Positions 7,836 to 34,102 of a stretch of DNA of 64,000 nucleotides are shown piece by piece. Within the stretch, counting starts at the first letter, position 1; the number at the start of each line of letters is the position of its first letter. A model generated the notes under the pieces. It did no database searches. It had not been told where the DNA came from and saw only the letters and a list, made by a program, of their open reading frames with translations. Position numbers and translations under genes: made by a program. Origin of the DNA: Escherichia phage SelmaRatti. The stretch is from the sequence record MZ501103. One strand, 5' to 3'.

Positions 7836-9662
7836 TTATTTAAGATTTAAGTGTTTTACTCTACCAAGCACTTCTTTTTGTTTCCCAGAATTGAAAGGCC
7901 TACTGCCCGGGGATCCCAGGTACCCGCAAACCCTACGTGTAACCTCTATTTCTTCAGATCCACAACCCGGACATACAAACCCACGTTCAGAAGCAACAGA
8001 TTCACCCATATATCCGCAGTTGAAACACTCATCAATTGGTATATTAACACCAATATAATGGCTACATTCTAGCCCCTTATCCACCACATACTCAAGAGCT
8101 TTGTGGAACTTTTTCATTTGAGGTAGTTCCACAAATGATATATTACCACCATTAGCTATTTTGGTAAAATGAGCTTCGTACTCAAATTTAGTATCTGGGG
8201 CTACTTTCTCTCTTACGTCCAAATGGTGACTATTAGTAAGATAGCCTTTATCTGTTAACCAAGAATACTCTGGGAACCTACGTTCTAGTAATTTATTAAA
8301 ACGATTACATAGAGACTCACTAGGAGTAGCATACAAGCTAAACCCAAGATTAGTCTCATTAGCTTTAACTTCGCAACGATTTTTTAGGTGAGTGAGAACT
8401 TCCTCTGTAAATTCAATACAATCCCTATGGGTTTGTGGTAGACCAAACATTATTTGGCACATCTCATAGACCCCAATGTATCCAAGAGATACAGAAGATC
8501 TACCCTCAAAAATAGGCCATACATACTCTTCCCCATCTAAACGCACACCAAAACCCCCGTGCATATAAAGAATAGGGGCTTGTTTAGCCTTCACTTTCTT
8601 AAGTCTATTTAAGAAAAAATCATGAGCTTCAAAAGCCTCATCCACATATTTGTCCAGAATATCCCAGAAATCTTCAAAAACCCCATCTGCCTCAGCAGCA
8701 ACCATAGGTAGATTAATAGACACTACACCTAAATTATTGCGCCCTGCAATTTCTCCGGAGGGGATAGCAGATAAAAAGCTACGACAACCCATAGGTGCTT
8801 TAAAATCACCAGTAACAGCTACAACTTTCTCGTAACTTAAATAGTCCGGGTACATACGGGTAGCAGAACACTCAAGTGCTAGCTGTTTTATATCGTAGTT
8901 AGGGTCGCCTGGATTTTTATTTAACCCTTCTTTAACTGAGAATACTAGTTTAGGGAAGATAGGGGTTGACTCAGCAGCACCTAAACCTTTAATACGGTTT
9001 TGGAGGATGGCTTTCTGAATCATCCTTTCCTCCCACCCCTGTCCTAGCCCAAAGCCAAGCGTAACAAAAGGAGTCTGTCCATTAGAGTTAAATAATGAAT
9101 TAGTTTCATACTCTAGGGCTTGGAATGCGTCATAACACTCTTTTTCAGTAAGTTCAGTAGCATATACAGCAGCTTTCCTTTCATCCTTGAGCCAACGTAG
9201 ACCACGACCCAGATGTTTATTGTAAGACTTTCTGACATACGGGGCTAGAACCTCATCGATACGATCAATAGAGGTGCCACCATACTGAGCACCAGATACT
9301 TGGGCAATAATCTGAGCAGTGATTGCACATGCAGTAGTTATGGATTTAGGAGTTTCAATATTTGCATTACCAATTTTAGTACCATTCTTCAGCATGCTAC
9401 CAAGGTCTACTAAGCAACAGTTAGTGTACCCCTGTGCTCTGTAATCCATATCATGAATGTGTATCTTACCTAGATTATGGGCGTCTAACAGGTGTTTAGG
9501 TAACTCTTGCGATACTAAATACTTGTTAACTTCCCCAGCTAATAAGTCTCTTTGAGTATGGAACATCTCACTAGGTTTATTAGCATTATTATGCTGTAAA
9601 TCCTTATCCGCAGTTAGAGTGAGCAGACCTTTGCAATTCTCAATTAATTCATTCTCTGTCAT
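7836..9662 (-). CDS. nrdD: anaerobic ribonucleoside-triphosphate reductase (class III RNR)
   Basis: 608 aa; C-terminal glycyl-radical motif RVCGYLG preceded by Cys-rich zinc ribbon (CFNCGY...CPGCGS). Confidence 0.85.
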   Translation of the reverse strand: MTENELIENCKGLLTLTADKDLQHNNANKPSEMFHTQRDLLAGEVNKYLVSQELPKHLLDAHNLGKIHIHDMDYRAQGYTNCCLVDLGSMLKNGTKIGNANIETPKSITTACAITAQIIAQVSGAQYGGTSIDRIDEVLAPYVRKSYNKHLGRGLRWLKDERKAAVYATELTEKECYDAFQALEYETNSLFNSNGQTPFVTLGFGLGQGWEERMIQKAILQNRIKGLGAAESTPIFPKLVFSVKEGLNKNPGDPNYDIKQLALECSATRMYPDYLSYEKVVAVTGDFKAPMGCRSFLSAIPSGEIAGRNNLGVVSINLPMVAAEADGVFEDFWDILDKYVDEAFEAHDFFLNRLKKVKAKQAPILYMHGGFGVRLDGEEYVWPIFEGRSSVSLGYIGVYEMCQIMFGLPQTHRDCIEFTEEVLTHLKNRCEVKANETNLGFSLYATPSESLCNRFNKLLERRFPEYSWLTDKGYLTNSHHLDVREKVAPDTKFEYEAHFTKIANGGNISFVELPQMKKFHKALEYVVDKGLECSHYIGVNIPIDECFNCGYMGESVASERGFVCPGCGSEEIEVTRRVCGYLGSPGSRPFNSGKQKEVLGRVKHLNLK

Positions 9663-10512
9663 TGATTATTTCCTCGATAAACTTTATAGCTACTTTTGGT
9701 TCAATATTGAAGAATTCCGTAGCACCGTCAAAATCTTTGTACTGGCAATTCTGCTCTTTAAAGTAGTTATGGGCTAATTTTTCTATTAGAACTGCACCAC
9801 TATATTCTCCAATTTCAAATACTTTAATTATTTCCAAATCAGTAAGGTGGCTACTAGACCTAATATGTAGAAGTCTACGCTCTGGATTGTTAGATCTACC
9901 TATTTTAACTCCGTGTGATGGGCTATGCATAACATATATCTTAGTACTTTCTAAATCTCTATAACTACAGTAAGGACAACCATTCCCTCTTAATACAGAT
10001 CCTGGAGTAGCTTCCCACCTATGCCCTGCACCACAAAGAAAGGCGGTCTTAGTATTCGCATTACTATACTCACCCACTATTCTGATATTTCTGGCAGCAA
10101 GACGATCATTTATAGTATTAACACTAAGTTTCTGTTTATTAGCAGCACAAGATGGGCAGCCACTACCTCTATTAATTATACTATTAAGTGTAGTAGCCCA
10201 CTCATGACCACAAACACACCTAAATTTAGTATTTATATCAGCACTATTTTTATAGCCGTTCAACAATGTAATACCTCTGTCCTGTAATATAGTATTAATT
10301 TTATCAATATCTAGTTTACGGCTACTAATAGAGCAAGTATGACACTTGGTCTTTCCATTCCTAATGGCGTCAAATTTAGCTGTCCATTGATGACCGTATT
10401 CGCACTGATACGTATGCCTATACCTAGAATTTTGATATGGCTTATCCACCATAGTAAAACCACGCTCGGCTAGGCATTTATCTACTTCTTCTTGAGTTAA
10501 TTTTTTCGGCAT
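9649..10512 (-). CDS. T5orf172-type endonuclease-like protein with repeated zinc-ribbon modules
   Basis: Three repeats of GHxW...G.GCPxC plus C-terminal IYVMHS...KIGRSNNPERRL (GIY-YIG-like); start moved to Met15 (MPKKLTQEE) by paralog alignment and RBS GGAGA. Confidence 0.6.
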   Translation of the reverse strand: MPKKLTQEEVDKCLAERGFTMVDKPYQNSRYRHTYQCEYGHQWTAKFDAIRNGKTKCHTCSISSRKLDIDKINTILQDRGITLLNGYKNSADINTKFRCVCGHEWATTLNSIINRGSGCPSCAANKQKLSVNTINDRLAARNIRIVGEYSNANTKTAFLCGAGHRWEATPGSVLRGNGCPYCSYRDLESTKIYVMHSPSHGVKIGRSNNPERRLLHIRSSSHLTDLEIIKVFEIGEYSGAVLIEKLAHNYFKEQNCQYKDFDGATEFFNIEPKVAIKFIEEIINDRE

Positions 10513-10540
10513 TCCACTTCTCCACAGAATTTTTACACCT

Positions 10541-10569
10541 ATTATACTAAACATTATCCACTATGTCAA
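10541..10569 (-). promoter_or_regulatory. sigma70-type promoter (TTGACA-17-TATAAT) on minus strand
   Basis: Reverse complement reads TTGACATAGTGGATAATGTTTAGTATAAT upstream of the 10512 start. Confidence 0.55.
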
Positions 10570-11763: not shown

Positions 11764-11907
11764 GTGGCCAAAAACTAGACTGACAACACAGAAGGCCTGG
11801 GTATGAAAATGCTCGGGCCTTTTCTATCAGAAAATTTTATTTGCCAAATGACTGAGAATAAAGTAAACTATTTCCTAAATCCTGATAACTATAAAAAGGA
11901 AAGCCAA

Positions 11908-14900
11908 ATGAGCCATCGCATTGAAAAAGTAATTAAACGTGACGGTACTGTAGAAGACTTTGCTCCTGAAAAACTCAATGGTTGGGCAGAGTATGGTTGC
12001 AAAACAGTTGATGTAAGTTGGTCAGCCATTACTATGGCTGCTCAAAAAACCCTACCTAAAGGGGTTGTAGATTCCGACACTCTTATGGACGCATTAATTA
12101 AAGCTGCTGAAAGTCTTATCAAAGATAACCCAGCATACGATGTGCCAGCAAAGGAATTACGTCTTGCGCAAATGCGTAAGCGCCTTTATGACTCTTTCGA
12201 ACCACCTTCTCTACGCTTCTTCCATGACCACATGGTTAGCGTAGGTACATGGGAAGACATGAGTGCATGGATTACCGATGAGCAATTTGAAGCTCTGAAT
12301 CAGGTTATCGACCATGATCGTGACCGTCTTTTTACTAGTGGTGGGCTGAAGCAGTTCTTTGATAAGTATTCACGTCGTAACATAGCCACTGGTGAAATTT
12401 ACGAAACCCCTCAATTCGCCTATATGGGTATGGCAATGGCGATGTTATCTCAACCTAACTGGACAATTCTAGATGCAATCGATCTCTACAATGCAATGTC
12501 GCTCCACAAGATCAACGTTCCTACGCCGCCATTGGTTGGCTTGCGCTCTAGTGACCGTGGATTTGCTAGTTGCTGCCTCGTGGATTCCACTGACACATTG
12601 GATTCAATCGACACAGCAGAGCACATCGTCTTCAAAATGGTCGCAGCCAGAGCGGGAATCGGGTATCATCTTGAAAGCAGATCAATTGCTGATCCGGTGC
12701 GAAATGGGGCATTCCCGCATTCCGGAAAACTGCCATATTATCGACACATTGACCGCTCAGTAAAGGCCAATACTCAGCAAACTCGTGGTGGTTCTGCTAC
12801 AGTGTCTTATCCATACTTCGACCCTGAAATCATTCAATTGATGCAGGTTAAGCAACAACGTGCTACAGATGAGAATAAAATCGATAAGATGGATTATTCT
12901 CTGAGCTTTAACAATCTTTTGTTAAAACGTTATCTTAAAAACGAAGATATTACGCTAATGTCATACTTCTATGCTCCAGAAGTTCATGAAGCGTTTTATA
13001 GTGATGACGAGGCTAAATTTGAAGAAATCTACGTGGCAGCGGAGAAACGTGTGGCATCTCTTACAAAAATCGACCACGAAGGAAAAACAGTTCCAGCAGC
13101 TCCTAAAGTCTCTGCAAAAGAAATCCTAGATACTTGGCTACGTATCCGAATGGAAACAGGACGTATGTACGCTCACCACATCGGGGAATCTAATCGTCAC
13201 GGTAACTTTCTTGATCCAATCCGTATGACTAACCTTTGTGTAGCTCCAGAAACAAAAATTTTAACCAAAAATGGTAACATAGAGATTATTGATTTAGTTG
13301 GTAAAGAAGTAGAGATTTGGAACGGGCAAGAATGGTCAACAGTTATCCCTGCTAAAACTGGGGAAGCTCAGGAGTTGATGAAAATCACATTCTCTGATGG
13401 ATCTACTATTGAATCTACTCTTTATCATAAGTTCTACCACCAGCCCAAATATGTAAGAGAGGATCGTAGTACCTCCTTCAAACAGGGTCTAGAAGAGGTA
13501 CGAGCAGTAGACTTGCAAGTAGGTATGAAAATGCCTAAATTTAGTAATCCTATTGTAGATCATGGAAATATGGTACTAAAATCTCCTTATACTAACGGTT
13601 TCTTCACTGGAGATGGAACTTATGGAAGACATGGAGAACCTAAGCTGTACTTCTATGAAAAAGGAGGCAAACTACCATTAGTGGATAAAATTGACGCAAA
13701 GATTCAGGGAAGTGGATTACTGGACAGCACAGGTAGACTGAGTTATATTGTTAAGTCTGATTTAATGCCGAAGTATTTTGTACCTGGCCCAGAATACACT
13801 ATTGATAGCCGTATCAAATGGTTAGAGGGATATTTAGATGCAGATGGCTGCATACAGAAAAATGGCACAACCCCTAGTATTGTGGTTGCTTCGGCAGAGC
13901 CTGATTTTCTAAGTAAAGTGAAGGATTTGTTACTAGAATTGGGGATTACTAGCAAGATTATTTTAGGACGCCAAGAAGGTGACTACGAGTTACCAGATGG
14001 TACTGGTAGTAGTAGTAAACTATACCACTGCAAGGAGACTAGTAGGCTTATTGTGGGGAGTAGTGGCTTCTGGAAACTTAAAGATTTAGGACTCTCTTTG
14101 GATAAAGAGAAACTCTTAAACCTAACACGCCCCAATAGAGACGCAACCCGTTTTGTAACTGTAACTAACGTTGAGTTTACTGGTCGTATTAGTGATACCT
14201 ATTGCTTTACAGAACCTAAATTAAACTTGGGTGTATTTAATGGCATTTTAGCTGGTAACTGTGTAGAGATTACTCAGCCTACACGCCCGTTCCACCACAT
14301 CACAGAGCTGTATAAGACAAAAGAGCAGCTTGATCAAATGAAGCCGGAGGATATTGGTGAAGTATCTCTGTGTAACTTAGGTGGTGTTGTACTTGGACGC
14401 ATGGAATCTCTGGCTGAGTGGGAAAAAACTTGCTACATCCTTCTGAAATTCGTTGATACAATTATTGAAATTCAGGATTATCCGTTCCCAACTATGGAAT
14501 ATACGGCTAAGAAACGTCGTAATGTTGGTATTGGCCTGATGAACGCAGCAGGTGCAATGGCAGCAGAAGGTCTGGCTTATGAAGGTATTGAAGCCCGTAA
14601 CTGGATTCACCGTGAGGCTGAAAAACTGTCTTACTTCCTGCATAAAGCCTCTGTACGCCTAGCTAAAGAACAGGGCGCATGTGAGTGGTTTGATCGTACT
14701 AAACCATCTAAAGGAATTCTGGTAATCGACACTTACAAGAAAACTGTTGATGAACTGGTATCCGTAGGTCTAGAAATGGATTGGGAATCTCTGCGTGCAG
14801 ATATTCTGAAATACGGTATGCGTAACTCTGTTCTGACTGCGCAGATGCCTGGAGAAAGCTCTTCTGTACTATTGGGTGTTACCAACTCAATTGAGCCACC

Positions 14901-15264
14901 TCGTAAGATTGTATCTATCAAGGGTAGTGCAGTGAATAAAGTAATTGCAATTGCTCCAGGTGCAACCGATTGGGATACTCTCATGAGCTATAAACTGGCC
15001 TATGATATTGATCGCACTGAGTGGATCAAGTGGAACGCCGTTTACCAAAAATTCTTGAGTCAGTCATCAAGTTTCCAGATGTATTATGATTACTCTAAAT
15101 TCGAGAATGAAATCATCCCTGGCCCAGTAGTAGTTCGTGACTTTATGACTGCGGTTAAGTATGGTATAAAAACCTGGTATTATGCTAACTTTAACACTGC
15201 GAATGGTGGAGGAGCTGGTGAAGAGGCGGCAACAGGTTGTGCATCAGGCGGTTGTCAGTTATAA
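11908..15264 (+). CDS. nrdA: ribonucleoside-diphosphate reductase large subunit (class Ia), intein-containing
   Basis: ATP-cone-like N-terminus after ATG 11908 (MSHRIEKVIKRDGT); active-site NLC/VEI split by an insert; exteins sum to about 777 aa. Confidence 0.85.
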   Translation: MSHRIEKVIKRDGTVEDFAPEKLNGWAEYGCKTVDVSWSAITMAAQKTLPKGVVDSDTLMDALIKAAESLIKDNPAYDVPAKELRLAQMRKRLYDSFEPPSLRFFHDHMVSVGTWEDMSAWITDEQFEALNQVIDHDRDRLFTSGGLKQFFDKYSRRNIATGEIYETPQFAYMGMAMAMLSQPNWTILDAIDLYNAMSLHKINVPTPPLVGLRSSDRGFASCCLVDSTDTLDSIDTAEHIVFKMVAARAGIGYHLESRSIADPVRNGAFPHSGKLPYYRHIDRSVKANTQQTRGGSATVSYPYFDPEIIQLMQVKQQRATDENKIDKMDYSLSFNNLLLKRYLKNEDITLMSYFYAPEVHEAFYSDDEAKFEEIYVAAEKRVASLTKIDHEGKTVPAAPKVSAKEILDTWLRIRMETGRMYAHHIGESNRHGNFLDPIRMTNLCVAPETKILTKNGNIEIIDLVGKEVEIWNGQEWSTVIPAKTGEAQELMKITFSDGSTIESTLYHKFYHQPKYVREDRSTSFKQGLEEVRAVDLQVGMKMPKFSNPIVDHGNMVLKSPYTNGFFTGDGTYGRHGEPKLYFYEKGGKLPLVDKIDAKIQGSGLLDSTGRLSYIVKSDLMPKYFVPGPEYTIDSRIKWLEGYLDADGCIQKNGTTPSIVVASAEPDFLSKVKDLLLELGITSKIILGRQEGDYELPDGTGSSSKLYHCKETSRLIVGSSGFWKLKDLGLSLDKEKLLNLTRPNRDATRFVTVTNVEFTGRISDTYCFTEPKLNLGVFNGILAGNCVEITQPTRPFHHITELYKTKEQLDQMKPEDIGEVSLCNLGGVVLGRMESLAEWEKTCYILLKFVDTIIEIQDYPFPTMEYTAKKRRNVGIGLMNAAGAMAAEGLAYEGIEARNWIHREAEKLSYFLHKASVRLAKEQGACEWFDRTKPSKGILVIDTYKKTVDELVSVGLEMDWESLRADILKYGMRNSVLTAQMPGESSSVLLGVTNSIEPPRKIVSIKGSAVNKVIAIAPGATDWDTLMSYKLAYDIDRTEWIKWNAVYQKFLSQSSSFQMYYDYSKFENEIIPGPVVVRDFMTAVKYGIKTWYYANFNTANGGGAGEEAATGCASGGCQL
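13237..14259 (+). mobile_element. intein with LAGLIDADG homing-endonuclease domain inside nrdA
   Basis: 341 aa in frame; starts with Cys after NL, ends in Asn followed by Cys of CVEI; motifs GFFTGDGT and LEGYLDADGC. Confidence 0.75.
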
Positions 15265-17046: not shown

Positions 17047-17879
17047 TGAAACAGTATATTGATTTAATTAATAAAGTTTTATCTGAGGGAACTCACGTGT
17101 CTGACCGGACAGGTGTAGGTACTATCTCTTCCCTAAATAATATTGTCTCTTTTGACCTTACTAAAGGGTTTCCAGCAGTAACAACAAAAGCACTAGCGTG
17201 GAAATCCGTGGTAGGGGAGTTGTTGTGGTTCCTCTCAGGATCCACTAACTTGTATGATCTAGAAGAGTATACTCATGGGACTAGAGGAGAGAAGCGTACT
17301 ATCTGGCATCCTAATTATGAAAAACAAGGGGTCGAAAAAGGCTACACTGAAGGTTATCTGGGATATATTTATGGGAAAACCTGGAGAGACTTCTTCGGCA
17401 CAGACCAGATTATGAAACTAATCGAGGATATCAAATCCGATACTTTTCATAATAGAAAAATGGTAGTCTCAGCATGGAATCCTGCAAAACTTGACGACGT
17501 TGTGCTTTCCCCCTGCCACGTAATGTTCTCCGTAAACCAAAGAGATGGACACCTACACTTAACATGGTACCAGGTTAGTTGTGATGTATTTCTGGGATTA
17601 CCATTTAATATAGCTAGCTATGCCTTACTCTGTCATATTTTAGCTGCACTCACAGGAAAGAAACCTGGGTCAGTAACGGGACATCTTGTGGACACTCATA
17701 TTTACTTAAATCACCTAGACCAAGTAAAGGAGCAAGTAACTAGAGAACCCCTGGAGCTACCTAGACTAGTGCTACCAAACTTCTCTTCCTTAGAAGATCT
17801 TCTGGCCCTAACACCCAAAGACTTTATCCTGGAAGAATATAAACATCACCCTAAATTAACTGGTAAAATGGCAGCATGA
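17046..17879 (+). CDS. thyA: thymidylate synthase
   Basis: 277 aa; catalytic-Cys region LSPCHVMFSVNQ and LGLPFNIASYALL. Confidence 0.85.
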   Translation: MKQYIDLINKVLSEGTHVSDRTGVGTISSLNNIVSFDLTKGFPAVTTKALAWKSVVGELLWFLSGSTNLYDLEEYTHGTRGEKRTIWHPNYEKQGVEKGYTEGYLGYIYGKTWRDFFGTDQIMKLIEDIKSDTFHNRKMVVSAWNPAKLDDVVLSPCHVMFSVNQRDGHLHLTWYQVSCDVFLGLPFNIASYALLCHILAALTGKKPGSVTGHLVDTHIYLNHLDQVKEQVTREPLELPRLVLPNFSSLEDLLALTPKDFILEEYKHHPKLTGKMAA

Positions 17880-18649
17880 TTTACATCTATAGTATAACTC
17901 AGTTATCTACTGGAAGACAGTACGTTGGATCGACTAAGGATATTGAGGCTAGAAAGCGTAAACATTTTTACTCACTAAGTAAGGGGAACCACCATAACGC
18001 TTTTCTACAGAGAGCTTATGATAAAACCGGAAAGCAAGACTTTGTATTTGACATCTTAGATACTACTGAAGAAGTAGATCAGCAGTTCCTACTAGAAGAA
18101 GAGTGGGCTAAGGAGCTGGGAGCAGAGTTCAACATAGGTAGTTACGGTGGTGGGGATAATCTCACAAATAATCCTCGAAGAGAGGAGATTATTAAGAGAA
18201 TTGGTGAGAGTGTTAGAAAGCATATAGCGTCCTTATCTGAAGAAGAAAGAAAAGCCCGGTGGAGTAGACCAGGTGAGCTAAACTATAACTGGAAGGGAGG
18301 AGTATCTACTCGCTCAAAAACATGTATTGATTGTGGTTCCCTACTAGCCCTTAATAACACTAATGGGGAGTACTGTAATAGTTGCAGGGATCGAACAGGT
18401 GAGAATAACCCCTTTTATGGGAAGAAGCATACTGAAGAGGCTCTGAGCAAGATGTCTCAGGCTTCTAAGCAGTACCAAGAAAGTATTAGAGAGGGAAAGA
18501 CACCCCTTCCTACCCACTTTAAGGCAGTACGTGTGGATGGTGTGGAATACGTTAGTATGAGTGCAGCAGCTATAGCATTGGGGTGTTCCACAGCGACTAT
18601 AGGTAATAGAGTTCGTTCACCTAAGTTCCCGACGTATGAGTTTGTATAA
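17876..18649 (+). CDS. GIY-YIG homing endonuclease
   Basis: N-terminal IYIYSITQLSTGRQYVGSTKDIEARKRKHF; overlaps thyA stop. Confidence 0.75.
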   Translation: MIYIYSITQLSTGRQYVGSTKDIEARKRKHFYSLSKGNHHNAFLQRAYDKTGKQDFVFDILDTTEEVDQQFLLEEEWAKELGAEFNIGSYGGGDNLTNNPRREEIIKRIGESVRKHIASLSEEERKARWSRPGELNYNWKGGVSTRSKTCIDCGSLLALNNTNGEYCNSCRDRTGENNPFYGKKHTEEALSKMSQASKQYQESIREGKTPLPTHFKAVRVDGVEYVSMSAAAIALGCSTATIGNRVRSPKFPTYEFV

Positions 18650-26375: not shown

Positions 26376-26450
26376 CGGGGTGTAGTCTAAGGGAGAGGCA
26401 GGAGTCTTCTAAATTCCTTTATGCAGGTTCGAATCCTGTCACCTCGGCCA
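26376..26450 (+). tRNA. tRNA-Arg(TCT)
   Basis: Hand-folded cloverleaf: acceptor CGGGGTG/CACCTCG, anticodon loop CTTCTAA, T-loop TTCGAAT, encoded CCA. Confidence 0.65.
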
Positions 26451-26484
26451 ATTTTATTAACTGTAACTAAAACAAAGGAAATAT

Positions 26485-27432
26485 ATGTTTAATACTAAAA
26501 ATATGAAAGAACTAACTTCTGAGCAGAAAGTAATTCGTACTATTAAACGTTGGGGGATTGGTGCTGTAGTTGGTTTAGCAGGTTTAATCCTAGCTTTTAA
26601 TTCATATACTATTGTTTCTGATGGTACGGTTAAAACTCAAACATTCCTGGGTAAAGTAGACCCTAATCCAGTATTACCTGGTTTCCATATTGTAAACCCG
26701 TTTGCATCTTTCGATACTTTCAGTACAAAAGATATTGCTGTAAAATTAGATAAACTTCAGGTTCCTAGTCAGGATAAGTTTAAATCCACTGTTGACCTGA
26801 CTGTTATGTTACAATTTGATGGTTCTAAGGCACCGATCAACCGTATTAATGCAGGTACTCAGGATCAGGCTCTAGATAAGTACGTAACTGAAAAATTACT
26901 GTCCACTATTCGTGAGTTCGGTAAGTCTGTACCTAAAGCACAAGATTTATTTGATGCTAAAATTCAGGCTCAATTGCAAACTGCAATTCAACAGGAAGTT
27001 GAAGAGTATGCACGCCCATATGGTTACACAGTTAAGCAGGTATTCCTTCAGGATATTACTTTGCCACCGGTAATCATGGAACAGGTACAGAATACCAAAG
27101 TTCGTGAAGAACAGGTTAATGCTGCTAAAGCTGAATTAGCTCGTGTTGAACAGGAAGCACAGCAAAAAGTTAAACAAGCAGAAGCAGATCGTGAAGCTCG
27201 CAACAACCAAGCTATCGCTAATGAACGTGACGCAGATGCTAAACTGTACGCAGCTAAGAAAGAAGCTGAAGCTAACGCCGCACTGCAACGTACCATTACT
27301 CCTGAGATGATTCGTTGGAAACAACTGGAAGTTGAGATGATTCGTGCTCAGAAATATCAAGGTGGTGTGCCGCAGACTGTGGTTGGCACTGGTTACGATG
27401 GCCAGATGATTATGGATATGCGTAATAAGTAA
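26485..27432 (+). CDS. SPFH/band-7 (prohibitin/HflKC-like) membrane protein
   Basis: N-terminal TM helix, SPFH-like core, long Ala/Glu/Gln coiled coil. Confidence 0.7.
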   Translation: MFNTKNMKELTSEQKVIRTIKRWGIGAVVGLAGLILAFNSYTIVSDGTVKTQTFLGKVDPNPVLPGFHIVNPFASFDTFSTKDIAVKLDKLQVPSQDKFKSTVDLTVMLQFDGSKAPINRINAGTQDQALDKYVTEKLLSTIREFGKSVPKAQDLFDAKIQAQLQTAIQQEVEEYARPYGYTVKQVFLQDITLPPVIMEQVQNTKVREEQVNAAKAELARVEQEAQQKVKQAEADREARNNQAIANERDADAKLYAAKKEAEANAALQRTITPEMIRWKQLEVEMIRAQKYQGGVPQTVVGTGYDGQMIMDMRNK

Positions 27433-27571
27433 TATCCACGCGTAATATTCGAAGTAAGCCCTGTGTTTCCTGGAGAGCGCAGGCAATTAAATGAATTTAT
27501 ATAAAATTTTGCTTGTTTTTGCGCGTAAAATTTTATATAATATTTACTCAAATTTGGAAGAATACGTTAAC

Positions 27572-27943
27572 ATGAATACTAATAAGAAAGGAAATATAGG
27601 GCTAGGAAGTGCGATTGCTCACTTTACTAGTAAAGGTTTGATTGTTTCACTACCTTTAAATGACAGTCAAGATTACGATCTAATCGTAGATATGGGGGGT
27701 ACTCTAAATAAAGTTCAGGTGAAATATACCTCCCAAAAGGCACCCTCTGGTAGTTATATTCTAGCTATGAGAAGTACAAGTGGCACTTCTAGAGTAGCGT
27801 ATAAGACTCTTAATGAAACTAATATTGATTTAGTGTTTGTGTATACTGATCAGTATCAGTTGTTAATTCCAATTAAGAAATTAACTAATAAAAATCAAAC
27901 TACCCTTACTAAAGAATTAGTACAAGAATTCCGAGTTATATAA
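27572..27943 (+). CDS. hypothetical protein, possible PD-(D/E)xK-like fold (123 aa)
   Basis: Start moved to ATG 27572 downstream of a T5-type promoter; DYDLIVDMGG...KVQVK resembles D-x-D/E-x-K. Confidence 0.4.
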   Translation: MNTNKKGNIGLGSAIAHFTSKGLIVSLPLNDSQDYDLIVDMGGTLNKVQVKYTSQKAPSGSYILAMRSTSGTSRVAYKTLNETNIDLVFVYTDQYQLLIPIKKLTNKNQTTLTKELVQEFRVI

Positions 27944-27945
27944 AA

Positions 27946-28035
27946 GGAAGAATACGTTAAAAGGTAAACGAGCTGATTGCTAATCAGTAGCTCTGAAATA
28001 TAGCCTTGTGGGTTCGATTCCCACTTCTTCCGCCA
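27946..28035 (+). tRNA. tRNA-Ser(GCT), long variable arm
   Basis: Acceptor GGAAGAA/TTCTTCC, D-stem CGTT/AACG, anticodon loop TTGCTAA, T-arm GTGGG-TTCGATT-CCCAC, CCA encoded. Confidence 0.7.
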
Positions 28036-28041
28036 AACATA

Positions 28042-28116
28042 GGGTCGGTAGCTTAAAGTTAAAGCGGTGGCCTCATAAGCTAACGAGTAGGAGTTAGATT
28101 CTCCTCCGACCCACCA
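28042..28116 (+). tRNA. tRNA-Met or Ile2 (CAT)
   Basis: Acceptor GGGTCGG/CCGACCC, anticodon loop CTCATAA, unusual T-loop TTAGATT, CCA encoded. Confidence 0.6.
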
Positions 28117-28291
28117 AATTAAGGAAATAAGATGTATAGACATCCACCTCCGCCAACACGTCGTTCTAGAGAAGTTATCCTCATGGAATTGACTAAAAAC
28201 TTCAAGGCAACTCTTGAAGATAGAGATTTAGGCACAGATGAAGATGTTGATTTCATCTGTAAACTATTAAAAATGAAACTGGAGAAACAAC

Positions 28292-28498
28292 ATGGCTAAT
28301 CCTGAAATTACCGCACAACGTTTCATGCTTAAAGGCATGATTGCTGAGGCAGGTATGACTCAAGAAGTTGTAGATTTTCAAAAGCAATTCCTCAATATTC
28401 TCACTCAAGCCAAAGAGCTAGGAGAGAAAGAACATGGAGCAGCAATTATGGCTATATCTCTTATTAGTCTAGACTTGGCTGAAGAATCAGGAGTTTAA
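28292..28498 (+). CDS. hypothetical protein (68 aa)
   Basis: ORF with RBS GGAGAAA. Confidence 0.45.
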   Translation: MANPEITAQRFMLKGMIAEAGMTQEVVDFQKQFLNILTQAKELGEKEHGAAIMAISLISLDLAEESGV

Positions 28499-28528
28499 CT
28501 CCTCCAAGCAGAAATTTTAAAAATGTAC

Positions 28529-28558
28529 TTGCCTTTTGCTTTAAATTTCTGATATAAT
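28529..28558 (+). promoter_or_regulatory. T5-type early promoter
   Basis: TTGCCT-18-TATAAT then ATAAATTGATGAG. Confidence 0.6.
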
Positions 28559-28587
28559 AGTTATATAAATTGATGAGAGGAATCAGA

Positions 28588-28863
28588 ATGTCAAAACGTG
28601 TTACAGCAACTGGTATTGAAAGTGTAATCTGCAAATCCTGGGAAGACAGGGAAGGTGAGATTGAATGGCTTTATTTCTATGATGTAGAACTTCTACCGGA
28701 AGTTAAAGCTAAATGTATTGAAGCTGGTATGGCTCCTGATGCTACTGCTGATGTTGAGATTATCATGAATAAGCTAGAGGGTCTGGTAATCACTGTTAGT
28801 GATGAGGGCGAAGAAGTCTTCGAACTTCCGTTCTCCTTAACTGTCACTCCTAAGTTCGACTAA
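28588..28863 (+). CDS. hypothetical protein (91 aa)
   Basis: ORF; start at ATG 28588 after RBS GAGG. Confidence 0.5.
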   Translation: MSKRVTATGIESVICKSWEDREGEIEWLYFYDVELLPEVKAKCIEAGMAPDATADVEIIMNKLEGLVITVSDEGEEVFELPFSLTVTPKFD

Positions 28864-28991
28864 CTAATACAGCACTGAGCAAGTTCTTCAAAATTTTACT
28901 TGCTCAGTGCCATAAAACTTGATATAATAGTTATCTAATTTGGAAACATATTTAAAAGTGTTTAAACTAGTATTTGAATACTTTTAAATGT

Positions 28992-29075
28992 GCATCGTTG
29001 GCAGAATGGCTATTGCAGCGGTCTGTAAATCCGTGCCCTTCGGGGTTGGTGGTTCAAATCCATCACGATGCACCA
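28992..29075 (+). tRNA. tRNA-Tyr(GTA), long variable arm
   Basis: Acceptor GCATCGT/ACGATGC, anticodon loop CTGTAAA, variable hairpin GCCCTTCGGGGT, T-arm GGTGG-TTCAAAT-CCATC, CCA. Confidence 0.65.
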
Positions 29076-29434
29076 AATTAAAGGAGCTGCTGATGCATCC
29101 TGAAAACTTCTTTATTTACTGCGAGGATAAGTAGCTGAAACGTAGAATTAACAAAGTCTATCATTATCGTGCTAGTCAACAGCCTTATATATACGCTTTT
29201 GACGGTGATCACATTCCACTAGAACAATTATCCTGTGATTACATGATATTGAAGAACTTTGACGAGACAAAGATCTCAAGCGTTCATAATCGACAGAATC
29301 CATTAACGTGGAAATATAAGAAGAAAAAGAAAGGCATCAAATTCTTAAAAAATGTAGTTGCTTAGTTTCCAAAAGTTCTGTATAATAATTACATAAATTG
29401 AACTGGAGAAGCAACATGACAGAACAAGGTAAAT

Positions 29435-29507
29435 CGACCGTTGGCTGAATTGCTTAGGTGAAGGATTGCAAATCCTTTTTATGTGAGTTCAAATCTCATG
29501 CGGTCGT
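29435..29507 (+). tRNA. tRNA-Cys(GCA)
   Basis: Anticodon arm AAGGA-TTGCAAA-TCCTT, T-arm GTGAG-TTCAAAT-CTCAT, acceptor 6/7 pairs; D-arm irregular. Confidence 0.55.
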
Positions 29508-29517
29508 CTAAATTTTA

Positions 29518-29600
29518 GGGTCGTTAGCCAAGTGGTTTGGCGGCGGATTGTTAATCCGTGTCGAAAGACAACGTAGGTTCGATTCCTGCACCCGCTGCCA
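29518..29600 (+). pseudogene. tRNA-Asn(GTT)-like, aberrant (about 14-nt extra segment, non-pairing acceptor)
   Basis: D-arm GCCA/TGGC and anticodon arm GCGGA-TTGTTAA-TCCGT fold well, but 3-prime ACCCGCT does not pair with 5-prime GGGTCGT. Confidence 0.4.
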
Positions 29601-29620
29601 TCTTAATAGAGGATTTCGAA

Positions 29621-29785
29621 ATGAAAGTATTTCGATTAGTAGTAAGTGATCGACGTTCTAGCAAAGATCGTTCGAAGTATACCTTAGCCCACTATGGTAA
29701 AGATGAAAAAGAAGTAATGGTGGAGTTTGGGATTAATCATCGCTACTTAGAAGTTTACTCTATTAAGGAAGTTTATCCGTATTAA
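29621..29785 (+). CDS. hypothetical small protein (54 aa) between tRNA genes
   Basis: ATG 29621 after RBS AGAGGA; ORF-track start lies inside the upstream tRNA-like element. Confidence 0.4.
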   Translation: MKVFRLVVSDRRSSKDRSKYTLAHYGKDEKEVMVEFGINHRYLEVYSIKEVYPY

Positions 29786-29863
29786 GGGTCGTTAGCTCAA
29801 TTGGTTAGTAGCACTTGCCTTTTAAGCAATAGGTTGAAGGTTCGAGTCCTTCACTACCCACCA
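29786..29863 (+). tRNA. tRNA-Lys(TTT)
   Basis: Acceptor GGGTCGT/ACTACCC (one mismatch), anticodon loop CTTTTAA, T-arm GAAGG-TTCGAGT-CCTTC, CCA. Confidence 0.65.
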
Positions 29864-29870
29864 AATTTTT

Positions 29871-29944
29871 GCTCGGTTAGTTTAATGGGAGAACCCCGTC
29901 TTTACACGGCGGTTGCGATAGTTCGATTCTATCACCGAGTACCA
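29871..29944 (+). tRNA. tRNA-Val(TAC)
   Basis: Acceptor GCTCGGT/ACCGAGT, anticodon loop TTTACAC, T-arm GATAG-TTCGATT-CTATC, CCA. Confidence 0.6.
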
Positions 29945-29969
29945 ATTAACTCAAAATAAGGAATTGCAA

Positions 29970-30329
29970 ATGCAATTATCAAGCAAGATTCAAGGTTATT
30001 TCGGTCATGTGACAATGGAGTTCGCTATCTCTAAAGGTTGGGATTTCGAGCAAGATCTAGCTGAGTTCTACAAAGATATTGATCTGAACGTACCGTATAT
30101 GGGACTTTCTACTGGTCAGGAGATCACAGAAGCCGATGTATTCAAGGCAAGTCAAGGTGAGATAACACCTAGTTTTGCCACTTTTTGGAGTGGCTTCACA
30201 ATTAAAGAAGAAGCTCCAGATGATGATGTATTTATGCAAAGCATGCACTCTGGGAGTTCTGATATGTTATTTGTTAAAGATGTACGACATATCCAAGAAG
30301 TGGTAAAAACGTATTTGCAAAATGCTTAA
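29970..30329 (+). CDS. hypothetical protein (119 aa)
   Basis: ORF; ATG 29970 after RBS TAAGGAA. Confidence 0.5.
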   Translation: MQLSSKIQGYFGHVTMEFAISKGWDFEQDLAEFYKDIDLNVPYMGLSTGQEITEADVFKASQGEITPSFATFWSGFTIKEEAPDDDVFMQSMHSGSSDMLFVKDVRHIQEVVKTYLQNA

Positions 30330-30876
30330 TTTCTTGTTATAATATTTATATAAATTGATGCGAAAATAGCTGCCTAGATACCAGGTGTATGACGTCTACA
30401 CTAGCAGAGCTACCGAAAAAGAGATCCTCAGGATAAACGTCGTAGCAAAATTAGTCTGGTATCCATCAATTTAGTTCACTAAGGTATTAGCTCGACCTAG
30501 GACTGGCTGCCAAAAAGCACGACCCCTACGACTCGGGAGAAGTTCTAGATTAGTCCACTAGATTCAGCGGCAACTGAATAGTGTATCGGGTTTGTGAAGA
30601 GCGGCTATCCTCTACTGGCTAATGTATGAGGTTAGTACGCACACCGAGCTAATAGCCTTAGTAAACTAAAGAATTTGGGCGAATAGTGTCAGCGGGAGCA
30701 CACCAGACTTGCAATCTGGGAGGGAGGGTTCGAGCCACTCTTTGTCCACCAAATTAAAAAGAATGCGCGCGATTGACGGAATAGGTATACGTGTAAGCCT
30801 TAGAAGTTGAATTTTGAGGGTTCGAATCCCATCGAGGCGTAACTGCCTGGTGTGATAGAGGCATCATCTTATTATT

Positions 30877-30967
30877 GGAAGAGCAAATCGAATTGGCGAC
30901 GAAAACCGCTGGGAAAGTGGCTGACTGGTAAAACGGCTTGAGAGTTCAAATCTCTCCTCTTCCGCCA
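30877..30967 (+). tRNA. type-II-length tRNA-like gene, anticodon unresolved (possibly Ser or Leu)
   Basis: Perfect acceptor GGAAGAG/CTCTTCC and T-arm GAGAG-TTCAAAT-CTCTC with CCA; internal arms not resolved by hand. Confidence 0.45.
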
Positions 30968-30979
30968 AACAATTTATAA

Positions 30980-31074
30980 GGTAGGTCAATCCAACGGCTG
31001 GCGATGGACTCCGACTTGAAATCGGTTGATCGTAGTGATACGGTGTAAGGGTTCGATCCCCTTACCTACCTCCA
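30980..31074 (+). tRNA. tRNA-Ser(TGA)-like, long variable arm
   Basis: Acceptor GGTAGGT/ACCTACC, T-arm AAGGG-TTCGATC-CCCTT, anticodon stem-loop CCGA-CTTGAAA-TCGG, CCA. Confidence 0.55.
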
Positions 31075-31440
31075 AATCTTGAAGTATGCCGGAATCGGTA
31101 GACGGGGCTTCCTAAAGGGCGTAAGGGGAACATCCACTCCTCATAAGATACCCGAAAACGAGGCTGAGATAAATGGTCTATCTCGTGAAGGTTCAAGTCC
31201 TTCTGCTTCTTGATACCTCTATGGCTCAAAGTGTAACGGTGCTATTTGATGCTCTTAGTAAGACTTTCCCGACATGCGTTCGGGGGTAAGCTGCTAAGAC
31301 TAGAGTAGAAGAGTTTCGGAGAGCCGCCACAATTGAAAATTCGTACTCGTCTTGAGCTGCGTGCAATAGGAGATAACTTGATTAGTATTCTAGAACATGC
31401 TAATTGAGGAAGGTTTCTCTAACCCTGCGAGTTTTCAATT

Positions 31441-31531
31441 GTGGCTATATCATAATTGGTTAATGATCCTGATTGTGAATCAGGCCTTCCAAGCCTCGCT
31501 GAGTAGGGTTCGATTCCCTCTAGCAGCTCCA
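31441..31531 (+). tRNA. tRNA-His(GTG)-like with unusually long extra arm
   Basis: D-arm TCAT/ATGA, anticodon arm CCTGA-TTGTGAA-TCAGG, T-loop TTCGATT, CCA; 19-nt variable region and one acceptor mismatch. Confidence 0.45.
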
Positions 31532-31548
31532 ACTTTAAGGAAACATTT

Positions 31549-31770: not shown

Positions 31771-32285
31771 TAATCTAAAATTAAGGTTGACAAACAAAAG
31801 AAATACGTTGAGGTTGAATTAGGCGAATAACGCTTAAAGCTAACTTTCGAGTTTCTTCAGCAGTTGGCTATGACAGTTATGACTGATAAGTCTCCTGTTA
31901 TTGAAAAAGAAATCCCGTTGAAATAATGGGATCATCGCTCTTAAAGCATTGCCGGAGATGCAACGGTCTTGTAAACCGTGGAACGGGCGTGACAGCAGGA
32001 AGTAGACTGCAACTCCATGCTATCCAGGAGTATAAATGTAGAAGCTAAGACTTTAGATAGCCATTGTCTTAGCGTGAGCAATCACGTAGTTGCAACAGAC
32101 CAGGGGGATCGCAACGTTAAAATCAAAGCTCCTGTACTTATTAAACTTAATGGGACTATCAATCCACAAGCCGGACTACGAGCGATTATCGGGTATTCAC
32201 TTAATAAGCAAGCCTGCCTTCCAGTTTTTATCTTGCTTCTGGGTTAACAAAAAGCTGAGCCAAATTCTAACATCAGGGAGATCTA

Positions 32286-32654
32286 ATGAAAGCGTATCAA
32301 AACCTTAAATCTGGCGTAATTAACATTGTTCATAACAATCAGATCATTCAACTATGTTCTAAAGATGGTGAACTTAAACAGAAAGTTCTAGTCGAAGATC
32401 TAGAAGGTATCACACCTCACTTTGACCCTGAGGCCTTTCGCATTGTAGATGTGGAAGTGATTCCTCAAATCGAGGGAGGTCAGCACCTAAATGTCAATGT
32501 GTTAAGTCGTGATCAGCTTTTGGATGCACAGAAACATCCTGAAAAATACCCTCAATTAACTATCCGTGTTTCAGGGTATGCTGTACGTTTTAACTCACTG
32601 ACGCGTGAACAGCAGAACGACGTTATTAGTCGTACATTTACTCAGGCGATGTAA
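32286..32654 (+). CDS. GrcA/YfiD-like autonomous glycyl-radical cofactor
   Basis: [11 protein letters not shown]...[36 protein letters not shown] matches the PFL C-terminal glycyl-radical domain. Confidence 0.8.
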
Positions 32655-32735
32655 TGGGGCTTGGATACGGTTTCTACGAACTACGTAAGGTAGTCGAGCA
32701 AACTCCATTTATCTCCCAAGTTTTAGGAGAAATGT

Positions 32736-32981
32736 GTGGATCGAGCATTAAGACGTCATCACCGGCAACGTGTAAAGAACAACCGCAAGAAGTATTGGAC
32801 AGTCTTCCCACATGAAGAAAGCCCTAAGCGGTTAGGTATTATCACTACTACTCCTTGCATCTGTTCTTGTTGGATGTGCGGGAATCCTCGCAAACACTTT
32901 AAGAATAGTAAAGCAGGGATGAAAACCTCGGAGATTAGGAAAATGGTGGATGGTAAGCTTTGGCGTGATCATGTGAAATAG
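32736..32981 (+). CDS. hypothetical Cys-rich basic protein (81 aa), GTG start
   Basis: RBS AGGAG 6 nt before GTG; CICSCWMCG cluster. Confidence 0.45.
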   Translation: MDRALRRHHRQRVKNNRKKYWTVFPHEESPKRLGIITTTPCICSCWMCGNPRKHFKNSKAGMKTSEIRKMVDGKLWRDHVK

Positions 32982-33240
32982 TTTGCTCTTTTTCCTGATG
33001 ATGATGTATCATGTATGGCAGTGAAGCCTTGAGCCTTGAGCTTTCGCTTTAATGCATTGTGAAATTTTTATAGATTCACAATGACATTAAGGCCACGCTC
33101 CACCGAAAGGTGATAATGGCAAGAGATTTGGATGAGGCTCGACAGGAAACTGTCGGGCCTTTTCTATATACAGGTAAATAATTTATGTATAACAAAATTC
33201 ATCCACATTAGGTTAATTTAAAAGACTTAATGGAGGTAAT

Positions 33241-33588
33241 ATGAGCCGTACTTATCGTAGACAATCTGGTGATCAGTGGTGGAAGTCTAAAGCTAATTAC
33301 ACCCAGGGATATACTTTCCTCAAAGCAAGTGGCTACTACATTCGTGTTATTTATGCTAAATCCTGGGATGAGGTAGAACAGGAAATGGAAGAAGCAACCA
33401 TTAGTAATGAGAAAAAGGATGGTTATAACTGGAATTCTGTTAGTAAGAATGTTAAGTGGCATTCTAATAAAATGGTTCGTCAAGGAAATCGTCAAGAACT
33501 CCACCGCGTGATGAAAGATCCAGAAAATTATGACTATAATCGCGATCATGACATGCGTAAGCGTGGATTATGGTGGTGCTATGATTGA
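33241..33588 (+). CDS. hypothetical protein (115 aa)
   Basis: ORF with RBS GGAGG. Confidence 0.5.
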   Translation: MSRTYRRQSGDQWWKSKANYTQGYTFLKASGYYIRVIYAKSWDEVEQEMEEATISNEKKDGYNWNSVSKNVKWHSNKMVRQGNRQELHRVMKDPENYDYNRDHDMRKRGLWWCYD

Positions 33589-34102
33589 GAACAAAATGGA
33601 AGAATGGAAAATCATCGAGAATTTTCCATCTTATGAGGTTTCTAGCTTAGGTAGGGTTAGAAACTTAAAAACAGGAAAAATCCGAAAACCCGTAGTACAT
33701 CACAGTGGATACTTACAACTAAACCTAGTAAAGAAAGATGGGTCTAAAAAGACTGTGTATATCCATAGGGTAGTGGCCTTTGCTTTCTGCAATCCTCCTA
33801 AAAACTGGAAAGAATTAACTGTCAATCATAAAGATGGAAATAAGGAAAATGTAGAGGCTACTAACCTAGAGTGGATTAGTATGTCAGATAATTTAAAACA
33901 CACAAGACTTACTGGTTTAAATCATATAGATGGTGAAATGAACGGTAGGGCTTTATTAACAGCAGAACAGGTTCTTTGGATACGGAATGTTTATATACCC
34001 AGGGACAAGGAATTTGGGCAGAAAGCCCTTGCAGAAAAATTCAATGTTAGCAAAGCCACTATAAGCCATATAATAACACGTAGGACTTGGACAGAAATTT
34101 AA
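33581..34102 (+). CDS. HNH homing endonuclease
   Basis: ELTVNHKDGNKENVEATNLEW HNH motif; start at ATG 33581 overlapping upstream stop. Confidence 0.65.
   Translation: MIENKMEEWKIIENFPSYEVSSLGRVRNLKTGKIRKPVVHHSGYLQLNLVKKDGSKKTVYIHRVVAFAFCNPPKNWKELTVNHKDGNKENVEATNLEWISMSDNLKHTRLTGLNHIDGEMNGRALLTAEQVLWIRNVYIPRDKEFGQKALAEKFNVSKATISHIITRRTWTEI

What the first reader, a model, noticed from the sequence alone, without database searches (positions are those of the whole stretch)
32286..32654. Phage-encoded GrcA-like spare glycyl-radical domain
Seen in sequence: the 122-aa product carries the pyruvate formate-lyase-type glycyl-radical motif RVSGYAV embedded in a GrcA/YfiD-like segment. Established knowledge: GrcA can replace the oxygen-damaged glycyl-radical domain of PflB. 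Inference: the phage may sustain host anaerobic formate metabolism; the phage NrdD uses a different RVCGY motif, so repair of NrdD is less likely.
Basis: partly seen in the sequence, partly recalled or inferred. Interest (0 to 1): 0.5.

Follow-up and report, generated by a model that had tools for sequence, protein, structure and literature searches.

The report
T5-type phage GrcA spare glycyl-radical protein
This is the well-conserved T5-phage copy of a small "spare part" protein that can replace the oxygen-broken radical-bearing tail of the host enzyme pyruvate formate-lyase; the gene is real, but it is already annotated and its phage T4 relative was tested in 2001.

Summary
Window 32286..32654 (+) is an intact 122-aa gene with a good Shine-Dalgarno site. 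It carries an exact RVSGYAV motif, with the radical glycine at Gly97. Its C-terminal 60 residues are 49/60 identical to both E. coli PflB and E. coli GrcA.

The exact protein is already deposited as QXV84393.1 from Escherichia phage SelmaRatti, a T5-like phage. It is the orthologue of T5.056. Orthologues are labelled "putative autonomous glycyl radical cofactor GrcA" or "pyruvate formate-lyase" in many phage records. It is 52% identical over its full length to T4 Vs.6 (Y06I), one of only two spare-part proteins validated biochemically.

Among 31 T5-type orthologues dN/dS is 0.07 overall and 0.018 in the radical domain.

T5-type genomes encode NrdD and this protein but no radical-SAM activase. 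Activation must therefore come from the host, with PflA the likely enzyme. There is no detectable similarity to the phage NrdD.

The one non-trivial point is the N-terminal half. It has diverged beyond recognition from bacterial GrcA, and AlphaFold predicts a small β-sheet there.

The parts
32286..32654 (+). CDS of the 122-aa GrcA-like autonomous glycyl-radical protein (orthologue of T5.056), stop codon included
32275..32280 (+). Shine-Dalgarno AGGGAG, 5 nt upstream of the ATG
   Evidence: read directly from the sequence
32286..32465 (+). N-terminal half (aa 1-60). It is phage-type and not recognisably GrcA-like. AlphaFold predicts four beta-strands in aa 2-37. dN/dS is 0.11.
32466..32651 (+). 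C-terminal glycyl-radical domain (aa 61-122). The EGGQHL...TFTQAM core (aa 63-122) is 49/60 identical to PflB and to GrcA. dN/dS is 0.018.
32565..32585 (+). RVSGYAV, the PFL-AE recognition heptapeptide; the radical glycine Gly97 is encoded at 32574-32576
   Evidence: the RVSGYAV peptide is the PFL-AE substrate mimic crystallised in PDB 3CB8 (PMC10665898)
32736..32981 (+). Downstream gene, probably co-transcribed: homologue of T5.055 (basic, CxCxCxxC, unknown function). It is 81 aa here against 103 aa in T5.
33134..33170 (+). Terminator-like hairpin plus T-run. It sits where T5 has its annotated rho-independent terminator after T5.055, and the flank TTTTCT.TATA.AGGTAAATA is conserved.
7836..9662 (-). 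Context only: phage NrdD (anaerobic ribonucleotide reductase, RVCGY). It is the second glycyl-radical protein of this phage and is unrelated in sequence to the GrcA-like protein.

Best explanation
[quoted passage not shown] It is probably expressed from the T5-type early region. The host enzyme PflA (PFL-AE) is expected to recognise the RVSGYAV loop and abstract a hydrogen atom from Gly97. The radical-bearing C-terminal domain would then dock into host PflB, whose own C-terminal radical domain has been cut at Gly734 by oxygen or is otherwise inactive. [quoted passage not shown] Shown here: homology, the exact activase-recognition motif, the predicted radical-domain fold, strong purifying selection, and the absence of any phage activase. 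Inferred: activation by host PflA, docking to host PflB, and the benefit. The proposed benefit is that a 122-aa patch keeps fermentative ATP and acetyl-CoA supply running during micro-aerobic or anaerobic infection, once T5 has shut off host gene expression and the cell can no longer make new PflB or GrcA.
For: 1. Domain matches: Pfam Gly_radical E 3.5e-18. The best NCBIfam hit is GrcA TIGR04365. The best PDB sequence hits are YfiD 6OWR and PflB.
2. Radical domain: 49/60 identical to both PflB and GrcA. All 32 invariant columns of a 60-sequence family alignment, including [10 protein letters not shown], are kept.
3. T4 relative: 52% full-length identity to T4 Vs.6, E 2e-37. T4 Y06I and YfiD are the validated PFL spare parts (PMC8683613; PMC13450708).
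4. Activase recognition: the RVSGYAV peptide itself binds PFL-AE (PDB 3CB8, cited in PMC10665898).
5. Structure: the AlphaFold model has a helix, a beta-hairpin with Gly97 at its tip, and a second helix. Foldseek's best hits are YfiD (TM 0.72 normalised to the target) and PFL (rmsd 2.5 A over 50 columns).
6. Selection: all 31 T5-type orthologues are intact 122-aa ORFs, with dN/dS 0.07 overall and 0.018 in the C-terminal half.
7. Distribution: 441 phage records hold a copy at 80% identity or more, and 1583 hold a homologue. The hosts are overwhelmingly enterobacteria, Vibrio and Aeromonas.
8. No phage activase: there is no NrdG or PflA homologue in the window or anywhere in T5, with a positive control.
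9. In vivo precedent: GrcA rescues inactive PflB G734A in E. coli (PMC12338860).
Against: No T5-type protein has been tested biochemically or genetically, and I found no paper on it. The N-terminal half is not recognisably GrcA-like. This is the half that, in YfiD, is needed for measurable binding to cleaved PFL and for efficient radical installation. In the window protein, TIGR04365 aligns only to aa 54-122 and scores 120.5 bits against a cutoff of 170. hhalign of the N-terminal halves against bacterial GrcA gives 26% probability over 12 columns. However, the validated T4 protein also falls below that cutoff at 151 bits. Timing and promoter use are inferred from T5's annotated map; the promoter scan in this window was at chance level.
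Confidence: 0.8

Rival explanations
1. The chemistry is the same, but the main target is a different formate-lyase or a different state of one. Candidates are TdcE (2-ketobutyrate formate-lyase) or full-length, never-activated PflB, rather than oxygen-cleaved PflB.
For: The DNA also matches tdcE (72.6% identity over 179 nt). GrcA restores activity to full-length PflB G734A in vivo (PMC12338860). The divergent N-terminal half could alter which partner or state is recognised.
Against: pflB is the best DNA match in essentially all E. coli genomes. PflB is the abundant, constitutive enzyme. T4 Y06I was shown to work with cleaved PFL.
Confidence: 0.1
2. The protein is a decoy or modulator. It soaks up host PflA activity, or occupies PflB without supporting catalysis, and so redirects pyruvate or SAM use for the phage's benefit.
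For: The N-terminal half differs from that of GrcA and is predicted to be folded rather than disordered. The phage supplies no activase of its own.
Against: Every catalytically relevant and invariant residue of the radical domain is kept under very strong purifying selection, with dN/dS 0.018. That is more than a decoy for the heptapeptide-recognising PflA would need. The T4 homologue restores PFL activity.
Confidence: 0.06
3. The protein is a spare radical domain for the anaerobic ribonucleotide reductase NrdD, either the phage's or the host's.
For: The phage encodes NrdD (7836..9662). All glycyl-radical enzymes suffer the same O2 cleavage. The reviews state that spare parts for glycyl-radical enzymes other than PFL remain an open possibility.
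Against: BLASTP finds no similarity to the phage NrdD (E 4.4). The motif is RVSGYAV, not RVCGY. Identity to the PflB C-terminus is 49/60. The NrdD radical domain also contains a Zn-ribbon (CPGC...) that is absent here.
Confidence: 0.03
4. The ORF is a non-functional leftover of a captured 3' end of pflB or grcA.
For: The DNA similarity to E. coli covers only the last 186 nt of pflB.
Against: The 122-aa ORF is intact in all 31 orthologues, with dS 0.38 and dN 0.027. It has a good Shine-Dalgarno site. It is conserved across T5-like, T4-like and jumbo phages.
Confidence: 0.01

Closest known systems
Bacteriophage T4 Vs.6 (Y06I), autonomous glycyl radical cofactor
   Same: Both are phage-encoded, of similar size (120 vs 122 aa), and start with MKAYQ. 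Identity is 52% over the full length, with the same [13 protein letters not shown] core. Y06I was shown in vitro to be activated by PFL-AE and to reconstitute O2-cleaved PFL (Wagner 2001).
   Different: T4's radical domain is almost identical to E. coli GrcA (59/60 by inspection), whereas the T5-type has a phage-type signature ([17 protein letters not shown]) shared with jumbo phages (53/60). T4's N-terminal half is clearly GrcA-like (hhalign 95.7%, E 1e-8), while the T5-type N-terminal half matches T4 only over its last 30 columns (79%). T4 also carries its own NrdG activase and T5-type phages carry none.
E. coli GrcA (YfiD), NCBIfam TIGR04365, PDB 6OWR
   Same: Both are two-part proteins of about 125 aa with a C-terminal glycyl-radical domain. 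Identity is 74% over aa 51-122 and the structural match has TM 0.72. The window protein's Gly97 corresponds to Gly102.
   Different: The score of 120.5 bits is below the family cutoff of 170, and only aa 54-122 align. The N-terminal half shows no detectable homology. That half is predicted to be a beta-sheet, whereas YfiD residues 1-60 are disordered by NMR. The gene is phage-encoded and lies in an early/tRNA gene region.
C-terminal glycyl-radical domain of pyruvate formate-lyase PflB (residues ~698-759)
   Same: 49/60 residues are identical, including the TFTQ.M ending and the LLDA segment. This is also the best DNA-level match, at 74% over 186 nt.
   Different: The window protein is a stand-alone 122-aa protein. 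It lacks the 10-stranded barrel and the catalytic Cys418/Cys419, so it cannot be a formate acetyltransferase, although many records name it 'pyruvate formate-lyase'.

Membership tests
Glycyl radical domain (Pfam PF01228) | Score above the gathering threshold, with the conserved RVxG[FWY] radical loop | tested here: met
   66.5 bits against a cutoff of 22.2; RVSGY at aa 94-98
[quoted passage not shown] | A small stand-alone protein (~120-130 aa) consisting of an N-terminal extension plus a PFL-type radical domain, with no catalytic barrel | tested here: met
   122 aa; the radical domain occupies aa 61-122; the best hits are GrcA, PflB C-terminus and T4 Vs.6
[quoted passage not shown] | Exact PFL-AE recognition sequence RVSGYAV around the radical glycine | tested here: met
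   Identical heptapeptide at aa 94-100; the peptide is the PFL-AE ligand in PDB 3CB8
[quoted passage not shown] | NCBIfam TIGR04365 equivalog cutoff (170 bits) | tested here: not met
   120.5 bits for the window protein and 121.5 for T5.056. The validated T4 Vs.6 also misses the cutoff (151.1), while E. coli GrcA passes (234). The cutoff therefore delimits bacterial GrcA, not the functional class.
[quoted passage not shown] | GrcA-type N-terminal half (needed in YfiD for binding cleaved PFL and for efficient activation) | tested here: inconclusive
   hhalign of N-terminal halves gives 26% probability over 12 columns for T5-type vs bacterial GrcA, 79% over 30 columns for T5-type vs T4/jumbo type, and 95.7% over the full length for T4/jumbo vs GrcA. 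Homology is therefore plausible only through intermediates, and aa 1-32 remain unassigned.
[quoted passage not shown] | Radical installation by PFL-AE and restoration of activity to O2-cleaved PFL | not testable with these tools
   This needs biochemistry. It has been shown only for YfiD and T4 Y06I.
Pyruvate formate-lyase / formate C-acetyltransferase (the name given in many phage records) | A ~760-aa barrel with catalytic Cys418/Cys419; TIGR01255 cutoff of 994 bits | tested here: not met
   86.7 bits, matching only profile positions 683-744. The names 'formate acetyltransferase', 'pyruvate formate-lyase' and 'ribonucleotide reductase subunit' in the records are mis-annotations.
T5.056 orthologue group (phrog_1209) | Full-length match and conserved position in the T5-type early/tRNA region, upstream of T5.055 | tested here: met
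   phrog_1209 E 1.2e-47 over aa 1-122; the same 90% cluster as the T5, BF23 and DT57C proteins; synteny with T5.055 and the terminator

The most novel reading that the evidence does not exclude
The T5-type N-terminal half is conserved (dN/dS 0.11), is predicted to be a folded four-stranded beta-sheet, and is not recognisably GrcA-like. It may give this lineage a different docking or recognition logic from YfiD and Y06I. For example, the protein might bind PflB or TdcE without needing the 696-733 'cleaved-but-intact' signal, or might recruit host PflA directly. In that case T5-type phages, which carry two glycyl-radical proteins and no activase, would be actively re-routing the host's radical-SAM activases rather than simply patching damage.
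Probability: 0.1. Interest if true: 0.45.

Novelty: already known. Interest (0 to 1): 0.15.

Why it matters
The gene is a tidy example of a phage auxiliary metabolic gene. A 122-aa patch keeps a 170-kDa host fermentation enzyme working when oxygen intrudes and the host can no longer make replacements. For phage biology, it underlines that T5-like phages are equipped for anaerobic or micro-aerobic gut infection through NrdD plus a PFL spare part. It also shows that they rely on host activases for both proteins. None of this is new in kind. The T4 counterpart was characterised in 2001, and the T5-type gene is already annotated as GrcA-like in public genomes. The remaining open question is modest: what the divergent N-terminal half does.

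Tried and rejected
- Phage activase: I looked for a phage-encoded activase that could explain activation without the host. A CxxxCxxC scan of all ORFs of 80 aa or more found only the 81-aa T5.055 homologue. tblastn with T4 NrdG and E. coli PflA against the window and the whole T5 genome found nothing below E 0.9, while the T4 control was found.
- NrdD link: there is no BLASTP similarity.
- Promoter scan of 31400-33300: 4 sites found against 4.0 expected, so uninformative.
- Literature on the T5-type protein: no papers for 'glycyl radical cofactor' + 'bacteriophage T5' or for 'Tequintavirus' + 'pyruvate formate'. The GrcA + phage search gave only host-side papers.
- Papers not held: Bowman 2019 and Kammel 2022.
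- Structure libraries: the AFDB50 fold library was unavailable. The BFVD search returned only other phage GrcA homologues and nothing for the N-terminal sheet.
- Origin of the radical domain: I could not decide from the 60-aa domain whether the T5 lineage derives from pflB or grcA. Identity is 49/60 to each, so the signal is too weak; the closest relatives are other phage copies.
- Source record: it appears to be absent from the phage DNA collection, where the best matches are about 93-95% identical. The phage was identified by the exact protein match.

Full report
**Observation.** The ORF at 32286..32654 (+) is real. It runs from ATG to TAA and encodes 122 aa. An AGGGAG Shine-Dalgarno sequence sits five nt upstream of the ATG (read). 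The heptapeptide RVSGYAV occupies aa 94-100 (nt 32565-32585), which puts the putative radical glycine at Gly97.

The match is far beyond chance. Pfam Gly_radical scores 66.5 bits, E 3.5e-18. The PDB sequence search gives YfiD/GrcA 6OWR at E 1.5e-29 and PflB at E 2.6e-27. The only other RVxGY-type motif in six frames is RVCGY, in the 608-aa NrdD at 7836..9662 (-).

**What the window is.** The window comes from a T5-like phage (Demerecviridae). DNA matches are 90-95% identical to hundreds of Salmonella and Escherichia T5-like phages. The exact protein sequence is deposited as QXV84393.1, 'putative formate acetyltransferase [Escherichia phage SelmaRatti]'. Its 90% cluster contains the T5, BF23 and DT57C proteins.

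In T5 the orthologue is T5.056, 'putative acetyltransferase-related protein'. It lies in the early/tRNA region, downstream of promoter P11. It is followed by T5.055 and a rho-independent terminator. The window keeps T5.055 and a terminator-like hairpin at the equivalent place, with a conserved flank. Other records call the orthologue 'putative autonomous glycyl radical cofactor GrcA', 'glycyl radical cofactor', 'pyruvate formate-lyase' or, wrongly, 'ribonucleotide reductase subunit'.

**Relationship to known proteins.**
- *Radical domain.* The core EGGQHL...TFTQAM (60 aa) is 49/60 identical to E. coli PflB, 49/60 to E. coli GrcA and 48/60 to T4 Vs.6. It is 51-53/60 identical to copies in jumbo and Vibrio phages, with which it shares DAQ.HPEKY and DVISRTFT.
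- *DNA level.* The last 186 nt match the 3' end of pflB at 74% in every E. coli genome.
- *T4 Vs.6.* Over the full length the protein is 52% identical, E 2e-37, and both start MKAYQ. T4 Vs.6 lies between regB and denV and is annotated 'autonomous glycyl radical cofactor GrcA'. From my own knowledge it is the protein called Y06I.
- *Literature on the class.* According to PMC8683613 and the 2026 review PMC13450708, YfiD and T4 Y06I are the only two biochemically validated spare-part proteins. PFL-AE installs the radical on them, and they then complement oxygen-cleaved PFL (Wagner et al. 2001). In vivo, GrcA also rescues full-length PflB G734A (PMC12338860).
- *Recognition motif.* RVSGYAV is the very peptide crystallised in PFL-AE, PDB 3CB8 (PMC10665898).

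**Evidence that the gene is functional.** Thirty orthologous loci from IMG/VR plus the window all have intact 122-aa ORFs. Nei-Gojobori estimates over the 29 distinct sequences are:

| Region | dS | dN | dN/dS |
|---|---|---|---|
| Whole gene | 0.38 | 0.027 | 0.07 |
| N-terminal half (aa 1-60) | 0.438 | 0.050 | 0.11 |
| Radical domain (aa 61-122) | 0.331 | 0.006 | 0.018 |

(All values.)

A 60-sequence alignment spanning phage and bacterial members has 32 invariant columns, all kept in the window protein. They include the whole P89-N103 block, [15 protein letters not shown].

The AlphaFold model has mean pLDDT 75.7. In the C-terminal half it shows helix 75-83, a hairpin (strands 91-95 and 98-101) with Gly97 at its tip, and helix 107-117. 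Foldseek against the PDB returns YfiD first (TM 0.72 normalised to the target). PFL follows (rmsd 2.5 A over 50 columns), and then the radical domains of other glycyl-radical enzymes.

**Where it departs from GrcA.** The NCBIfam GrcA equivalog model aligns only to aa 54-122. It scores 120.5 bits against a cutoff of 170. For calibration, E. coli GrcA scores 234, the validated T4 Vs.6 scores 151 (also below the cutoff), a jumbo-phage copy scores 137 and T5.056 scores 121.5. The cutoff therefore delimits bacterial GrcA rather than the functional class.

Profile-profile comparison of the N-terminal halves alone gave the following:

| Comparison | Probability | E-value | Columns |
|---|---|---|---|
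| T4/jumbo type vs bacterial GrcA | 95.7% | 1e-8 | full length |
| T5-type vs T4/jumbo type | 79% | 1.5e-5 | last 30 |
| T5-type vs bacterial GrcA | 26% | 7e-4 | 12 |

The T5-type N-terminal half is therefore the most diverged of the family. AlphaFold predicts four beta-strands in aa 2-37 with pLDDT about 82, whereas YfiD residues 1-60 are disordered by NMR. No fold match was found for this part. In YfiD the N-terminal half is needed for measurable binding to cleaved PFL and for efficient activation. This is the one place where the T5-type protein could behave differently.

**Who activates it.** No ORF of 80 aa or more in the window has a CxxxCxxC motif except the small T5.055 homologue. tblastn with T4 NrdG and E. 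coli PflA finds nothing in the window or in the complete T5 genome (best E 0.96). The same search recovers T4 nrdG at E 1e-107, and PflA finds it at 1e-10. T5's annotation likewise shows nrdD followed directly by a terminator.

T5-type phages thus carry two glycyl-radical proteins and no activase. The GrcA-like protein must be activated by a host enzyme, for which PflA is the obvious candidate given the exact RVSGYAV motif. This last step is inference.

**Rivals.**
- *NrdD repair* is very unlikely. BLASTP shows no similarity between the two phage proteins (E 4.4), and the motif and flanks are of the PFL type.
- *A pseudogene or leftover* is excluded by the selection analysis.
- *A decoy role* is hard to reconcile with near-absolute conservation of the whole radical domain.
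- *A preference for TdcE or for uncleaved, inactive PflB* is a variation on the same mechanism and cannot be excluded.

**Why a phage would carry it (inference).** T5 shuts off host gene expression through its pre-early genes (annotation of A1). After that, the cell cannot replace oxygen-damaged PflB or induce its own grcA. A cheap early-expressed 122-aa patch would preserve pyruvate-to-acetyl-CoA flux, and with it ATP from acetate formation, during infection of enterobacteria in fluctuating low-oxygen habitats. Homologues occur in 1583 phage records, almost all from phages of facultative anaerobes such as Escherichia, Salmonella, Klebsiella, Shigella, Aeromonas, Yersinia and Vibrio. This fits that reading.

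**Verdict.** The finding is already known: the same protein is in public databases, orthologues are annotated as GrcA, and the concept dates from 2001. Interest is low. The only residual novelty is the divergent, apparently folded N-terminal half and the dependence of both phage glycyl-radical proteins on host activases.

Noticed in passing
window 7836..9662 (-) and 32286..32654 (+); T5 genome NC_005859 (L042-L044): T5-type phages encode two glycyl-radical proteins (NrdD and the GrcA-like protein) but no NrdG or PflA-type radical-SAM activase anywhere in the genome, unlike T4, which has nrdG. Both proteins must rely on host activases.
   Followed up: yes
window 11803..15264 (+): The class I ribonucleotide reductase large subunit is 1153 aa. 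Its barrel domain is interrupted by a LAGLIDADG_3 homing-endonuclease domain at aa 672-758, so it probably contains an intein.
   Followed up: no
window 17876..18649 (+), 33530..34102 (+), 9649..10554 (-): Free-standing homing-endonuclease-type genes: GIY-YIG/NUMOD3 (I-TevI-like) after thyA, HNH/NUMOD4 two genes downstream of the GrcA-like gene, and a T5orf172/MUG113/CapR-domain protein overlapping the start of nrdD.
   Followed up: no
window 32736..32981 (+): The gene immediately downstream is the homologue of T5.055. It is a basic protein with a CxCxCxxC cluster and no Pfam match. Here it is 81 aa against 103 aa in T5, and similarity stops after residue ~70, so the C-terminus has been replaced or truncated.
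   Followed up: partly
window 31975..32245 and the tRNA region 26376..31531: This phage has only 10-11 tRNA genes, against about 24 in T5. It lacks the T5.058/tRNA-Ile/tRNA-Met block (and apparently tRNA-Thr) that sits directly upstream of the gene in T5 and close relatives. About 270 nt of unrelated sequence replace about 900 nt.
   Followed up: partly
window 29518..29594 (+): Rfam tRNA hit (41.1 bits, above the gathering score) that ARAGORN did not call. It may be a divergent tRNA or one of the T5-type tRNA-like stable RNAs.
   Followed up: no
proteins P0076, P0102, P0103, P0119: Some database 'GrcA' proteins, mostly from short contigs, combine an E. coli-type GrcA N-terminal half with a C-terminal half identical or nearly identical to PflB (MNREMLLDAME.PEKY...TFTQSM). 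This could be grcA/pflB gene conversion or assembly chimeras.
   Followed up: no
window 6546..6995 (-): A 149-aa ORF lies at the position of T5's Sir2-like genes downstream of nrdD (T5.102/T5.105). It looks like a truncated Sir2-family protein, but I did not check it against Pfam.
   Followed up: no
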